A stretch of 64,000 bases of DNA from Eledone cirrhosa (GCA_964016885.1 OZ024742.1:225184001-225248000), one strand, 5' to 3'. Shown: positions 42,413 to 51,100, numbered from the stretch's first letter. The notes: a model not told the origin generated them from the letters alone. Translations and numbers: made by a program.

Positions 42413-42962
42413 TCATCTATATTAAAACTGTTATACTCTGCTATGTATTGAGTACCTTACTTACTGTGGTTACCTCCGATTCAACCCGGAATAACGTATA
42501 TATATATATATATATATATATATATATATATATATATATATATATGTATGTATATATATATATATATATAATTATATATTCGTCTACAGATATTTTAGCA
42601 TGCACAATAACTGTTTCTACTTTTGGCACAAGGCCAGCAATTACCCAGTCAAAATGTAAACAAACGTATTTATTTCACGAGGCTCGATAAGGATAAATAT
42701 ATATCAAATATATAAGTATAAGAACCCTAGAGCAAATCCCGAGCAACGCCGGGCCATTCTGCTAGTTATATATATATATATATATATATATATATATATA
42801 TATATTGGAATAAATGCTCTGAAATAGCGATATATATGTGAATATAGACATAGAATATTCGAAAATATTCTGTATGTTTATAATAAACATTTTGAAGACC
42901 TAATCGCTATAGAATAGAATACGTCACGTATTACAATTAGATTCTCGATAAAAGCAAGGGAA

Positions 42963-43005
42963 GTAATCTACGCGTTTCATTCTCGTTAGAAATCATCAGG
43001 ACTAC
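42963..43005 (-). ncRNA. Type I hammerhead ribozyme, first of 7 minus-strand copies (every 310 bp)
   Basis: Reverse complement of GTAGTC-CTGATGA-TTTCTAACGAGAAT-GAAA-CGCG-TA-GATTAC. Confidence 0.85.
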
Positions 43006-45109: not shown

Positions 45110-48100
45110 TTCCCTTGCTTTTATCGAGAATCTAATTGTAATACGTGACGTATTCTATTCTATAGCGATTAGGTCTTCAAAATGTTTATTATAAACATAC
45201 AGAATATTTTCGAATATTCTATGTCTATATTCACATATATATCGCTATTTCAGAGCATTTATTCCAATTTCTAATTTCTGCCGGACCGGCAACTGCTCTT
45301 TCAAACCAGTTCCTGTACACAGCTAAGTATTCTATAAGTCTCTAGCTGTGTCATTCTCGATAAAAGCACTGGATATGTAGTCCTGATGATTTCTAACGAG
45401 AATGAAACGCGTAGATTACTTCCCTTGCTTTTATCGAGAATCTAATTGTAATACGTGACGTATTCTATTCTATAGCGATTAGGTCTTCAAAATGTTTATT
45501 ATAAACATACAGAATATTTTCGAATATTCTATGTCTATATTCACATATATATCGCTATTTCAGAGCATTTATTCCAATTTCTAATTTCTGCCGGACCGGC
45601 AACTGCTCTTTCAAACCAGTTCCTGTACACAGCTAAGTATTCTATAAGTCTCTAGCTGTGTCATTCTCGATAAAAGCACTGGATATGTAGTCCTGATGAT
45701 TTCTAACGAGAATGAAACGCGTAGATTACTTCCCTTGCTTTTATCGAGAATCTAATTGTAATACGTGACGTATTCTATTCTATAGCGATTAGGTCTTCAA
45801 AATGTTTATTATAAACATACAGAATATTTTCGAATATTCTATGTCTATATTCACATATATATCGCTATTTCAGAGCATTTATTCCAATTTCTAATTTCTG
45901 CCGGACCGGCAACTGCTCTTTCAAACCAGTTCCTGTACACAGCTAAGTATTCTATAAGTCTCTAGCTGTGTCATTCTCGATAAAAGCACTGGATATGTAG
46001 TCCTGATGATTTCTAACGAGAATGAAACGCGTAGATTACTTCCCTTGCTTTTATCGAGAATCTAATTGTAATACGTGACGTATTCTATTCTATAGCGATT
46101 AGGTCTTCAAAATGTTTATTATAAACATACAGAATATTTTCGAATATTCTATGTCTATATTCACATATATATCGCTATTTCAGAGCATTTATTCCAATTT
46201 CTAATTTCTGCCGGACCGGCAACTGCTCTTTCAAACCAGTTCCTGTACACAGCTAAGTATTCTATAAGTCTCTAGCTGTGTCATTCTCGATAAAAGCACT
46301 GGATATGTAGTCCTGATGATTTCTAACGAGAATGAAACGCGTAGATTACTTCCCTTGCTTTTATCGAGAATCTAATTGTAATACGTGACGTATTCTATTC
46401 TATAGCGATTAGGTCTTCAAAATGTTTATTATAAACATACAGAATATTTTCGAATATTCTATGTCTATATTCACATATATATCGCTATTTCAGAGCATTT
46501 ATTCCAATTTCTAATTTCTGCCGGACCGGCAACTGCTCTTTCAAACCAGTTCCTGTACACAGCTAAGTATTCTATAAGTCTCTAGCTGTGTCATTCTCGA
46601 TAAAAGCACTGGATATGTAGTCCTGATGATTTCTAACGAGAATGAAACGCGTAGATTACTTCCCTTGCTTTTATCGAGAATCTAATTGTAATACGTGACG
46701 TATTCTATTCTATAGCGATTAGGTCTTCAAAATGTTTATTATAAACATACAGAATATTTTCGAATATTCTATGTCTATATTCACATATATATCGCTATTT
46801 CAGAGCATTTATTCCAATTTCTAATTTCTGCCGGACCGGCAACTGCTCTTTCAAACCAGTTCCTGTACACAGCTAAGTATTCTATAAGTCTCTAGCTGTG
46901 TCATTCTCGATAAAAGCACTGGATATGTAGTCCTGATGATTTCTAACGAGAATGAAACGCGTAGATTACTTCCCTTGCTTTTATCGAGAATCTAATTGTA
47001 ATACGTGACGTATTCTATTCTATAGCGATTAGGTCTTCAAAATGTTTATTATAAACATACAGAATATTTTCGAATATTCTATGTCTATATTCACATATAT
47101 ATCGCTATTTCAGAGCATTTATTCCAATTTCTAATTTCTGCCGGACCGGCAACTGCTCTTTCAAACCAGTTCCTGTACACAGCTAAGTATTCTATAAGTC
47201 TCTAGCTGTGTCATTCTCGATAAAAGCACTGGATATGTAGTCCTGATGATTTCTAACGAGAATGAAACGCGTAGATTACTTCCCTTGCTTTTATCGAGAA
47301 TCTAATTGTAATACGTGACGTATTCTATTCTATAGCGATTAGGTCTTCAAAATGTTTATTATAAACATACAGAATATTTTCGAATATTCTATGTCTATAT
47401 TCACATATATATCGCTATTTCAGAGCATTTATTCCAATTTCTAATTTCTGCCGGACCGGCAACTGCTCTTTCAAACCAGTTCCTGTACACAGCTAAGTAT
47501 TCTATAAGTCTCTAGCTGTGTCATTCTCGATAAAAGCACTGGATATGTAGTCCTGATGATTTCTAACGAGAATGAAACGCGTAGATTACTTCCCTTGCTT
47601 TTATCGAGAATCTAATTGTAATACGTGACGTATTCTATTCTATAGCGATTAGGTCTTCAAAATGTTTATTATAAACATACAGAATATTTTCGAATATTCT
47701 ATGTCTATATTCACATATATATCGCTATTTCAGAGCATTTATTCCAATTTCTAATTTCTGCCGGACCGGCAACTGCTCTTTCAAACCAGTTCCTGTACAC
47801 AGCTAAGTATTCTATAAGTCTCTAGCTGTGTCATTCTCGATAAAAGCACTGGATATGTAGTCCTGATGATTTCTAACGAGAATGAAACGCGTAGATTACT
47901 TCCCTTGCTTTTATCGAGAATCTAATTGTAATACGTGACGTATTCTATTCTATAGCGATTAGGTCTTCAAAATGTTTATTATAAACATACAGAATATTTT
48001 CGAATATTCTATGTCTATATTCACATATATATCGCTATTTCAGAGCATTTATTCCAATTTCTAATTTCTGCCGGACCGGCAACTGCTCTTTCAAACCAGT

Positions 48101-51100
48101 TCCTGTACACAGCTAAGTATTCTATAAGTCTCTAGCTGTGTCATTCTCGATAAAAGCACTGGATATGTAGTCCTGATGATTTCTAACGAGAATGAAACGC
48201 GTAGATTACTTCCCTTGCTTTTATCGAGAATCTAATTGTAATACGTGACGTATTCTATTCTATAGCGATTAGGTCTTCAAAATGTTTATTATAAACATAC
48301 AGAATATTTTCGAATATTCTATGTCTATATTCACATATATATCGCTATTTCAGAGCATTTATTCCAATTTCTAATTTCTGCCGGACCGGCAACTGCTCTT
48401 TCAAACCAGTTCCTGTACACAGCTAAGTATTCTATAAGTCTCTAGCTGTGTCATTCTCGATAAAAGCACTGGATATGTAGTCCTGATGATTTCTAACGAG
48501 AATGAAACGCGTAGATTACTTCCCTTGCTTTTATCGAGAATCTAATTGTAATACGTGACGTATTCTATTCTATAGCGATTAGGTCTTCAAAATGTTTATT
48601 ATAAACATACAGAATATTTTCGAATATTCTATGTCTATATTCACATATATATCGCTATTTCAGAGCATTTATTCCAATTTCTAATTTCTGCCGGACCGGC
48701 AACTGCTCTTTCAAACCAGTTCCTGTACACAGCTAAGTATTCTATAAGTCTCTAGCTGTGTCATTCTCGATAAAAGCACTGGATATGTAGTCCTGATGAT
48801 TTCTAACGAGAATGAAACGCGTAGATTACTTCCCTTGCTTTTATCGAGAATCTAATTGTAATACGTGACGTATTCTATTCTATAGCGATTAGGTCTTCAA
48901 AATGTTTATTATAAACATACAGAATATTTTCGAATATTCTATGTCTATATTCACATATATATCGCTATTTCAGAGCATTTATTCCAATTTCTAATTTCTG
49001 CCGGACCGGCAACTGCTCTTTCAAACCAGTTCCTGTACACAGCTAAGTATTCTATAAGTCTCTAGCTGTGTCATTCTCGATAAAAGCACTGGATATGTAG
49101 TCCTGATGATTTCTAACGAGAATGAAACGCGTAGATTACTTCCCTTGCTTTTATCGAGAATCTAATTGTAATACGTGACGTATTCTATTCTATAGCGATT
49201 AGGTCTTCAAAATGTTTATTATAAACATACAGAATATTTTCGAATATTCTATGTCTATATTCACATATATATCGCTATTTCAGAGCATTTATTCCAATTT
49301 CTAATTTCTGCCGGACCGGCAACTGCTCTTTCAAACCAGTTCCTGTACACAGCTAAGTATTCTATAAGTCTCTAGCTGTGTCATTCTCGATAAAAGCACT
49401 GGATATGTAGTCCTGATGATTTCTAACGAGAATGAAACGCGTAGATTACTTCCCTTGCTTTTATCGAGAATCTAATTGTAATACGTGACGTATTCTATTC
49501 TATAGCGATTAGGTCTTCAAAATGTTTATTATAAACATACAGAATATTTTCGAATATTCTATGTCTATATTCACATATATATCGCTATTTCAGAGCATTT
49601 ATTCCAATTTCTAATTTCTGCCGGACCGGCAACTGCTCTTTCAAACCAGTTCCTGTACACAGCTAAGTATTCTATAAGTCTCTAGCTGTGTCATTCTCGA
49701 TAAAAGCACTGGATATGTAGTCCTGATGATTTCTAACGAGAATGAAACGCGTAGATTACTTCCCTTGCTTTTATCGAGAATCTAATTGTAATACGTGACG
49801 TATTCTATTCTATAGCGATTAGGTCTTCAAAATGTTTATTATAAACATACAGAATATTTTCGAATATTCTATGTCTATATTCACATATATATCGCTATTT
49901 CAGAGCATTTATTCCAATTTCTAATTTCTGCCGGACCGGCAACTGCTCTTTCAAACCAGTTCCTGTACACAGCTAAGTATTCTATAAGTCTCTAGCTGTG
50001 TCATTCTCGATAAAAGCACTGGATATGTAGTCCTGATGATTTCTAACGAGAATGAAACGCGTAGATTACTTCCCTTGCTTTTATCGAGAATCTAATTGTA
50101 ATACGTGACGTATTCTATTCTATAGCGATTAGGTCTTCAAAATGTTTATTATAAACATACAGAATATTTTCGAATATTCTATGTCTATATTCACATATAT
50201 ATCGCTATTTCAGAGCATTTATTCCAATTTCTAATTTCTGCCGGACCGGCAACTGCTCTTTCAAACCAGTTCCTGTACACAGCTAAGTATTCTATAAGTC
50301 TCTAGCTGTGTCATTCTCGATAAAAGCACTGGATATGTAGTCCTGATGATTTCTAACGAGAATGAAACGCGTAGATTACTTCCCTTGCTTTTATCGAGAA
50401 TCTAATTGTAATACGTGACGTATTCTATTCTATAGCGATTAGGTCTTCAAAATGTTTATTATAAACATACAGAATATTTTCGAATATTCTATGTCTATAT
50501 TCATATATATATATATATATATATATATATATATATATATATATATATATATATATATATATATATATATATATATATATACATACATACATACATATAT
50601 ATATATATATATATATATATATATATATATATATATAAATATACACGGGTGTGTATGATTGTGTATAGAAGATTATGTTAATAAAAGGAATTCCAACTTT
50701 GTCTGATTTACTCGTTTTATTTACAATCCTTTAAAATTATAATGGTATTATAATGAAATAGTATGGTAGAATATTAAATGTTAAATGTTAATTGAACAAG
50801 TACTTTCATGCTTTTGCAATCTTCAGGTTCATATTCAGTGGTGACAGTCAAGTTGGCAATTTTCAAGCGTGTTTCTGTGTCTGTGTGTGCGTATATATAT
50901 ACATATATATACCAATAACATAACTGTAGCCGACAACGGTATTATACTGGAATATAAATCGGAGCGGGCGTTGTGGATTGTGGGTTGCGGGGCGAAAATT
51001 TTTATTAACGAAAGAAAACAAACTCATGTCACACACATCTTGGCATTTTTCCTCATCAAATCAACAACAAAAACTAACAAACCAACCAAACAACCAAATA

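What the first reader, a model, noticed from the sequence alone, without database searches (positions are those of the whole stretch)
42805..50503. 7.7-kb near-perfect array of 25 hammerhead ribozymes with a central inversion
Seen: an exact 310-bp period with only two variants noticed, one minimal type I HHR per unit (palindromic ACGCGT stem III, GUA site), and a highly self-complementary non-coding unit. The arms start and stop at arbitrary phases of the unit within (TA)n. Known: non-LTR retrozymes are tandem HHR repeats that produce circular RNAs, and palindromic stem III HHRs work as dimers. Inference: a very recent single event in which an RT went round a 310-nt circle about 7 and 18 times from the two target ends, so this would be a genomic record of a viroid-like RNA rather than an ordinary satellite.
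Basis: partly seen in the sequence, partly recalled or inferred. Interest (0 to 1): 0.9.

Follow-up and report, generated by a model that had tools for sequence, protein, structure and literature searches.

The report
Penelope-mobilised rolling hammerhead retrozyme arrays
This is one of over 1,200 young insertions of a 310-base ribozyme-bearing repeat, each typically two back-to-back arrays inside a TA microsatellite, likely written by a Penelope-type reverse transcriptase going round a small circular RNA from both DNA ends, which makes a long-proposed mechanism testable.

Summary
In detail: 25 hammerhead cores, a 310-bp period, two variants, and divergent arms of 7.2 and 17.7 units inside (TA)n. 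It is one member of a large young family: 4,204 exact core copies and 1,245 insertion ends genome-wide.

One point is wrong: the outer ends are not arbitrary. In 53 of 54 two-armed loci one arm ends 137-139 nt and the other 163-172 nt after the cut site. Only the central ends scatter. Two start sites about 30 nt apart, an inverted 5'-truncated arm and (TA)n targets are Penelope-like element (PLE) hallmarks.

Both arms share one haplotype in 28 of 29 loci, against 123 of 812 cross-locus pairs. Private variants fill nearly every unit, and 452 cut-site passages show no indel. This fits a unit-length, likely circular template. A sister family keeps all 24 helical pairs of the ribozyme.

Verdict: a genome-encoded non-LTR retrozyme with PLE insertion anatomy, not a captured viroid. 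The circle, cleavage and the partner enzyme are inferred, not shown. Some arrays also grew at the DNA level.

The parts
42767..42805 (.). left (TA)n target tract; the last 2 nt (AT) are shared with the arm
42804..45030 (-). left arm, 7.18 units of 310 bp, ribozyme sense on the minus strand; outer (3') end at unit phase 165 (start site 2), inner end at phase 109; 7 hammerheads; one variant at 44412 (phase 1 = first base after the GUA cut)
45029..45030 (.). head-to-head central junction of the two arms, with 2-nt microhomology (TC)
45029..50512 (+). right arm, 17.7 units, ribozyme sense on the plus strand; inner end at phase 236; exact to 50503 (phase 130), T for C at 50504, then ATATATAT shared with the target (phase 139, start site 1); 18 hammerheads; one variant at 45088
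47215..47299 (+). example type I hammerhead domain: 14-bp extension, 6-bp stem I, core CUGAUGA at 47243, stem II (U.U + 4 bp + AACG loop), GAAA, palindromic ACGCGU stem III, predicted cut after 47273
   Evidence: geometry as for canonical metazoan type I hammerheads in PMC4209133 passages
47405..47412 (+). example of inferred reverse-transcription start site 1 (phases 132-139, AUAUAUAU)
   Evidence: arm ends at 137-139 in 54 of 54 two-armed loci; 1,245 junctions genome-wide
47438..47445 (+). example of inferred start site 2 (phases 165-172); the stretch between the two sites is the PLE-type tail
   Evidence: arm ends at 163-172 in 53 of 54 loci
50513..50643 (.). right (TA)n target tract, which also bounds the 3' end of a Neptune-like PLE fragment

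Best explanation
This is one insertion of a young, non-coding, 310-base hammerhead repeat family (a non-LTR retrozyme) built as two divergent tandem arms in (TA)n, likely written in one event by a Penelope-like reverse transcriptase/endonuclease copying a likely circular unit-length RNA from both target ends. Shown by sequence: the arms, their polarity, the two fixed outer ends, the scattered inner ends, and one haplotype per locus. Inferred steps: (1) An array is transcribed. Neighbouring hammerheads pair through the palindromic stem III and cut after GUA, and a host ligase closes the 310-nt monomer; a lone circle cannot form stem III and is stable. (2) A PLE protein, probably a dimer, binds the conserved structure at about phases 60-200 and nicks both strands of a (TA)n tract. 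(3) One 3' end starts cDNA at phase about 139 and the other at 165-172. (4) Each enzyme rolls round the circle a variable number of times (median 4.4 units, up to 45) and stops at a scattered position. (5) The two cDNA ends are joined head to head by microhomology repair, which gives the central inversion. New arrays are new sources. Some arrays later gain or lose units at the DNA level. Whether one circle or two identical circles serve the two arms cannot be told. Confidence that it is a PLE-mobilised retrozyme is about 0.9; the figure given is for the full circle mechanism.
For: Family size: 4,204 exact 37-nt core matches, control 0; 1,245 site-1 junctions. Two start sites: 53 of 54 two-armed loci have one arm at 137-139 and the other at 163-172. 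Many of these loci were fetched because they had such ends, but the rule also held in 22 of 23 loci found without regard to ends and in 5 of 6 loci fetched for a lone site-2 end (the sixth runs into a gap). On C1 up to 97.5 Mb, 33 of 33 divergent end pairs are site 1 + site 2. PLE hallmarks in print: two adjacent internal start sites giving a 30-40 nt tail, with both strands cut and extended (PMC11167929); an inverted 5'-truncated copy, a tail at one end only, and (TA)n bias (PMC8557442 passages). Single-unit template: both arms have identical haplotypes in 28 of 29 loci with arms over 900 bp, against 123 of 812 cross-locus pairs; 14 haplotypes; private variants in e.g. 31/31, 17/17, 17/17 and 14/14 units. 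191C>T occurs as 10 scattered singletons, yet is fixed across both arms of the window and C21 arrays. No template end: 452 of 452 cut-site passages have the same length, and only 1 of 108 inner ends lies within 5 nt of the cut. No sporadic variant is shared in register between loci, and 54 of 54 central junctions differ. Ribozyme under selection: sister family B keeps all 24 helical pairs (13 same, 5 one-sided, 6 two-sided), swaps C3-G8 for U3-A8, keeps a palindromic stem III, and ends at the homologous two sites. Machinery is present: 10,596 GIY-YIG candidates. A young Neptune-like family (97.6-99.3% identity among 4 ORF copies) has a hammerhead of the same geometry and divergent arms ending about 124-127 and 160-172 nt after its cut.
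Against: No cleavage or circle was shown; everything about the RNA is inferred from DNA. Rfam does not recognise the hammerhead, and the monomer MFE fold does not form the active core. In vitro, the anole PLE uses uncleaved RNA and does not need the ribozyme (PMC11167929); 8 of 9 Xenopus retrozyme dimers did not cleave (bioRxiv 2026.07.22.740005). No autonomous partner matched by sequence: 23 PLE 3' ends gave no convincing match (best scores 18-35 against shuffle maxima of 22-32), and the best candidate was reached by 69 of 500 shuffles. DNA-level change is real in some loci: two linked variants in 9 of about 45 units (L206+7), repeated variant blocks (L045), a local duplicate with a different unit count (L194), a duplicated centre (L180) and a higher-order array (L043). 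One locus (L217) switches haplotype mid-arm. Inner ends are mildly non-uniform (Rayleigh p about 0.01). Nine of the first 32 loci were not clean two-armed insertions, and 6 of 6 lone site-1 loci were single-armed or nearly so. The covariation count is from two families aligned by hand.
Confidence: 0.62

Rival explanations
1. The PLE enzyme copies a long, uncleaved linear read-through transcript of an existing homogeneous array, starting internally at the two sites; no circle is needed for a given insertion.
For: The anole PLE prefers uncleaved RNA and starts internally (PMC11167929). Source arrays are nearly uniform (187 sporadic differences in 203,023 bases), so their transcripts would give uniform copies. 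The stem III is weak.
Against: It cannot by itself fix a new single-unit mutation in every unit of both arms (private variants 31/31, 17/17 and others). No sporadic variant is shared in register and no central junction is inherited among 54 loci. Arms reach 34 and 45 units.
Confidence: 0.15
2. The template is a cleaved linear monomer whose ends are held together by the long stem I (a nicked circle), and the enzyme jumps the nick at each round.
For: The 20-bp stem I plus extension would hold both ends together. The L217 mid-arm haplotype switch is compatible with template switching. End-to-end jumping by some reverse transcriptases is recalled, not from a call.
Against: There are no indels in 452 cut-site passages and no pile-up of arm ends at the cut (1 of 108). 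Haplotypes are not mixed in 28 of 29 loci.
Confidence: 0.12
3. Short two-armed PLE-type insertions (or a Foldback-like DNA element) later expand into arrays by unequal crossing-over, slippage or gene conversion, so unit number does not count enzyme rounds.
For: There are DNA-level signatures in L206+7, L045, L194, L180 and L043. bioRxiv 2026.07.22.740005 discusses local amplification.
Against: The window's 7.7 kb has only two singleton variants and no repeated marker. Both arms are multi-unit and share private variants across the inversion. The abundant short family C shows no arrays in the 15 best-matching loci (a selected set).
Confidence: 0.08
4. The near-perfect array and its inversion are an assembly or chimeric-read artefact.
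For: Very uniform repeats can be collapsed or polished, and I could not lay spanning reads on this locus.
Against: The two arms are not mirror images. Ends follow a two-site rule at 53 of 54 loci, each with its own junction and haplotype. The same anatomy occurs in families B and D and in an ORF-bearing PLE.
Confidence: 0.02

Closest known systems
Metazoan non-LTR retrozymes (Cervera and de la Pena 2020, PMC7229834; abstract, passages and Discussion read)
   Same: Non-coding tandem repeat in the 150-450 bp range, GC under 50%, one type I hammerhead per unit. The weak palindromic helix III is like axolotl HHR_Amex1 and the U.U at the base of helix II like HHR_Amex2. The paper proposes circles copied by a PLE enzyme into tandem cDNA.
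   Different: There the arrays are described as head-to-tail ('inverted' and 'opposite' have 0 hits in the main text) and the mobiliser is only proposed. Here insertions have two divergent arms, two fixed start sites and one haplotype per locus. RNA is shown there, not here.
EN+ Penelope-like elements (Poseidon from Anolis, PMC11167929, parts 1-3 of 4 read; Neptune/Naiad anatomy, PMC8557442, passages read)
   Same: Two internal start sites about 30 nt apart downstream of a hammerhead, both target strands extended, an inverted 5'-truncated arm, a tail at one end, and (TA)n targets.
   Different: No ORF, a 310-nt unit, and up to 45 perfect tandem units per arm instead of partial tandems. Site 1 here has 8 nt of AU complementarity to the target, whereas the anole enzyme starts without homology.
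Vertebrate retrozymes as non-autonomous PLEs (Li, Clavereau, Pollet, bioRxiv 10.64898/2026.07.22.740005; parts 1-3 of 5 read, supplements closed)
   Same: Same conclusion on the partnership; similar unit lengths.
   Different: Their evidence is co-occurrence and pLTR homology, and they say the mechanism remains open. Here the evidence is insertion anatomy and haplotypes, and no pLTR homologue was found.
Hammerhead viroids and viroid-like circular RNAs (general knowledge, recalled)
   Same: About 300 nt, non-coding, highly structured, hammerhead, likely circular.
   Different: It is genome-encoded and spread by reverse transcription, with an intact ribozyme in one polarity only (the antisense strand has a degenerate remnant). 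There is no evidence of RNA-to-RNA replication or infectivity.

Membership tests
non-LTR retrozyme | short tandem repeat of 150-450 bp without ORF, LTR, PBS or PPT | tested here: met
   310-bp period; no ORF of 200 aa or more in the array; arms abut (TA)n directly with no terminal direct repeat. PBS/PPT were not searched separately.
non-LTR retrozyme | type I hammerhead in every unit | tested here: met
   25 of 25 cores; covariation with the sister family; not detected by Rfam
non-LTR retrozyme | dispersed multi-locus family | tested here: met
   4,204 cores and 1,245 site-1 ends
non-LTR retrozyme | self-cleavage, as monomer or dimer | not testable with these tools
   only a predicted 6-bp stem III duplex
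non-LTR retrozyme | expressed as linear and circular unit-length RNA | not testable with these tools
   needs RNA from the organism; circularity is inferred from haplotypes and junctions
Penelope-like element (non-autonomous passenger) | two RT start sites giving a 30-40 nt tail at one end | tested here: met
   137-139 versus 163-172 in 53 of 54 loci; spacing 24-35 nt
Penelope-like element (non-autonomous passenger) | inverted 5'-truncated copy at the 5' end | tested here: met
   33 of 33 divergent pairs; scattered inner ends
Penelope-like element (non-autonomous passenger) | AT-rich or microsatellite target | tested here: met
   (TA)n at the outer ends of nearly all flanks printed
Penelope-like element (non-autonomous passenger) | sequence homology to the pLTR or 3' end of an autonomous PLE | tested here: inconclusive
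   no convincing match among 50 GIY-YIG loci or 23 ORF 3' ends, out of 10,596 candidates; the best analogue is not significant
Penelope-like element (autonomous) | ORF with RT and GIY-YIG endonuclease | tested here: not met
   no ORF in the array
viroid / viroid-like replicon | intact ribozymes in both polarities | tested here: not met
   core motifs occur only on the sense strand of each arm; the antisense remnant is degenerate
viroid / viroid-like replicon | RNA-to-RNA replication without a DNA stage | not testable with these tools
   the family has thousands of DNA copies; RNA replication was not examined

The most novel reading that the evidence does not exclude
Each insertion is a single-molecule concatemer read of one covalent RNA circle. 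A dimeric Neptune-type PLE enzyme primes both cut ends of a (TA)n target at two sites on the same 310-nt circle and rolls round it up to 45 times. At least three circle families in this genome (310, about 320 and 466 nt) use the same route. This would be direct genomic evidence for rolling-circle reverse transcription of ribozyme-made circular RNAs in animals, and would explain PLE tandem, inverted and tail structures with one mechanism.
Probability: 0.45. Interest if true: 0.82.

Novelty: new variant of a known kind. Interest (0 to 1): 0.64.

Why it matters
Two proposals have stood without direct evidence in the papers I read: that animal retrozymes are mobilised by PLEs, and that tandem copies arise by more-than-unit reverse transcription of a circle (PMC4209133, PMC7229834; the 2026 preprint calls the mechanism unresolved). 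This family carries the PLE two-start-site and inverted-arm signature on perfect multi-unit arrays with one haplotype per locus, at over 1,200 very young loci. It offers a 310-nt substrate, mapped start sites, a known target and a candidate enzyme family for a direct in vitro test. It also shows one way a dispersed 'satellite' of roughly 4 Mb can be born by retrotransposition (estimate: 1,245 loci x 3.2 kb mean span). A processive enzyme that writes 14 kb from a circle into both DNA ends would interest gene-insertion work.

Tried and rejected
Horizontal spread across species: one search listed 20 runs (18 organism labels, 17 studies) holding 63-85% of the unit's words, and I laid 4 of the 24 listed runs. 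Raw Hi-C reads of one of those organisms gave 0 of 12,836,656 records; the tool notes this is no test unless the organism is shown to be in the run. The three contig sets each held one 315-340 nt contig at depth 3.6-34, together with pieces of an unrelated host repeat (42606-42649). I read this as trace carry-over from this or a related genome, so transfer is not supported. A 340-nt contig (310+30) cannot tell a tandem array from a circle.

Expression: no RNA holder listed; no evidence either way.

Rfam: no hammerhead hit.

Classical L1-type twin priming (recalled model) was rejected, because the inner end of one arm does not match the start of the other.

DNA transposon with fixed internal structure was rejected: 54 of 54 junctions differ.

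Multimeric circles: no alternating variant pattern was seen by eye; not formally tested.

Partner search: GIY-YIG scan, 50 loci compared (the ORF filter in that script failed and was redone), 23 3' ends, candidate alignment not significant.

Target-site duplication and empty allele: not determinable inside (TA)n from one assembly.

Rows dropped before counts: L043+72 and L180 (complex), one of two duplicates in L194, the partial second insertion in L187, single-armed loci, and 30 nt at arm ends for variant counts. The reverse-strand count (2,638) is inflated by overlapping matches and was not used.

Earlier scan findings: none returned.

Literature: eight searches found no description of two-armed retrozyme arrays with fixed start sites. 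Most subscription papers, the figures, and the supplements of PMC7229834 (not opened) and of the preprint (closed) were not seen and may bear on this. PMC13282606 and PMC9977147 (passages only) added nothing. The host taxon was not determined.
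Full report
Observation. The array is as described. The left arm runs 42804-45030 with the hammerhead sense on the minus strand (7.18 units), and the right arm runs 45029-50503 on the plus strand (17.66 units). The period is 310, there are two interior variants (44412, 45088) and 25 hammerhead cores, and both ends lie in (TA)n. The arms diverge, so each flank continues into the antisense strand, as expected if both target 3' ends primed cDNA. The centre has a 2-nt overlap. 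The unit is more structured than its shuffles (-69.4 versus -49.4 +/- 4.2 kcal/mol, 100 shuffles). Phases below count from the first base after the GUA cut.

The ribozyme. Rfam does not call it. By hand it is a canonical metazoan type I hammerhead as described in PMC4209133 (passages): 6-bp helix I, 4-bp helix II, and a one-pair helix III with a palindromic loop, active as a tandem dimer. An older sister family B in the same genome (about 80% identical over part of the unit; 2,768 candidates) keeps all 24 helical pairs: 13 unchanged, 5 changed on one side, 6 on both. It also keeps a mismatch at the base of helix II, swaps C3-G8 for the published U3-A8 variant, and has its own palindromic stem III. 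This compares two families by a hand alignment. Cleavage itself was not tested.

It is a family. The 3.0-Gb assembly has 4,204 exact copies of a 37-nt core (control 0) and 1,245 junctions of one unit site to (TA)n. I analysed 32 loci found by similarity or by the core and 39 further stretches chosen from junction lists. After dropping complex, duplicate and single-armed cases, 54 two-armed loci remained.

Outer ends are fixed and paired. In 53 of 54 loci one arm ends at phase 137-139 and the other at 163-172. Selection does not explain this: it held in 22 of 23 loci found without regard to ends, in 33 of 33 divergent end pairs on the first 97.5 Mb of C1, and in 5 of 6 loci fetched for a lone site-2 end. 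Six loci with a lone site-1 end were single-armed or nearly so. Inner ends are scattered (91 distinct phases among 108, mildly non-uniform, p about 0.01), and all 54 central junctions differ. Family B ends at the homologous two places, although its site 1 has less AU complementarity, so position rather than pairing seems to set the start (inference).

That is Penelope anatomy. The purified anole PLE cuts and extends both strands of AT-rich DNA and starts at two adjacent internal RNA sites, which define the 30-40 nt tail (PMC11167929). PLE insertions often carry an inverted 5'-truncated copy, have the tail at one end only, and favour (TA)n (PMC8557442 passages). The genome is rich in PLEs (10,596 GIY-YIG candidates; long ORFs). 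One young Neptune-like family (CxxxxCxxC linker; 97.6-99.3% identity among four ORF copies) has a hammerhead of the same geometry and ends about 124-127 and 160-172 nt after its cut. Three of its four fully visible two-armed loci paired the two ends; the fourth had the long end twice. Its sequence does not align significantly with the unit (69 of 500 shuffles), so it is a candidate by analogy only.

The template was one unit long. Among 29 loci with both arms over 900 bp, the two arms have the same haplotype in 28, against 123 of 812 cross-locus pairs. There are 14 haplotypes, and private variants fill nearly all units (31/31, 17/17, 17/17, 14/14, 10/10; lowest 20/22 and 13/14). In the first 14 loci no permutation of 100,000 reached the observed match. 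The CpG change 191C>T appears as 10 isolated singletons, yet is fixed across both arms in the window and C21 arrays, as expected if one mutated unit seeded a whole array. No sporadic variant (187 in 203,023 bases) recurs at the same register in another locus. All 452 passages through the cut site have the same length, and only 1 of 108 inner ends lies within 5 nt of it, so the enzyme met no template end there. A covalent circle explains all of this most simply. This is the model proposed in PMC4209133 (passages) and PMC7229834 (Discussion).

Against. Nothing at the RNA level was shown. The anole enzyme uses uncleaved RNA, and most Xenopus dimers did not cleave. DNA-level change occurs: linked variants in 9 of about 45 units in L206+7, repeated blocks in L045, a duplicate with a different unit count in L194, a doubled centre in L180, and higher-order structure in L043. 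L217 changes haplotype within an arm. So unit number is not a clean count of enzyme rounds everywhere. For the window, two singletons in 7.7 kb leave little sign of later expansion but cannot exclude it. One circle versus two identical circles cannot be resolved.

Generality. The same window holds a 466-bp hammerhead family D (4175-5655) with divergent arms ending near phases 228 and 302 in most two-armed stretches of 25 examined, some of them overlapping. It also holds a short family C (42296-42495) with two arms, ends about 22 and 88 nt after its cut, and no arrays in its 15 best-matching loci.

Verdict. This is a genome-encoded non-LTR retrozyme with full PLE insertion anatomy (about 0.9), likely spread by rolling reverse transcription of a 310-nt circle (0.62). 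It is not evidence for an outside viroid. Both parent ideas are in print as proposals, including bioRxiv 2026.07.22.740005. Eight searches found no report of two-armed retrozyme arrays with paired start sites and locus-wide haplotypes, within the library's limits. Novelty: new variant of a known kind. Interest 0.64.

Noticed in passing
window 4175-5655: A second retrozyme family (466-bp unit, type I hammerhead) with the same divergent two-arm anatomy in (TA)n; ends near phases 228 and 302; 797 candidates genome-wide.
   Followed up: partly
window 42296-42495: A short (about 200 bp) two-armed hammerhead element, 1,180 candidates; fixed outer ends about 22 and 88 nt after the cut, and variable centres just 5' of the core; may be the linear-template counterpart.
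   Followed up: partly
unit phases 226-305, e.g. window 47189-47268: The unit resembles the inverted junction of family C (74% over 80 nt, E 2e-6), including a degenerate antisense hammerhead. The 310-nt unit may descend from a circularised inverted junction, and this segment can pair with the core in the nascent RNA as a possible off-switch.
   Followed up: partly
window about 50620-50860, minus strand: 3' end, with hammerhead (core at 50826), of the Neptune-like family that is the candidate partner; the array sits in the (TA)n tract at its end.
   Followed up: partly
L073+L049 (G000:C3, about 153.58-153.59 Mb) and L206+L207 (G000:C1, about 97.46-97.48 Mb): The same non-CpG variants recur at irregular units of one long arm (269G>T in 5 of 27 units; linked 81A and 84A in 9 of about 45): DNA-level conversion or expansion, or repeated misreading of one damaged template base.
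   Followed up: no
L217:2175-4077: The left arm switches from 276A (outer four units) to 276G (inner two); the right arm is all G.
   Followed up: no
window 38999 and many fetched loci: At least half a dozen further type I hammerhead families are scattered through this genome, often as inverted pairs.
   Followed up: no
window 17173-23010, 24704-26682, 32362-34065: A 40-bp satellite interrupted by an ORF that looks like a LINE reverse transcriptase (23052-24737), and a 25-bp array.
   Followed up: no
window 15906-15976 and 16195-16265: Two tRNA-like sequences in opposite orientation, possibly SINE heads.
   Followed up: no
window 39645-40919 and 52094-63690: A PLE-like RT-endonuclease fragment, and two fragmented elements that look like L1/Tx1 by eye.
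   Followed up: no
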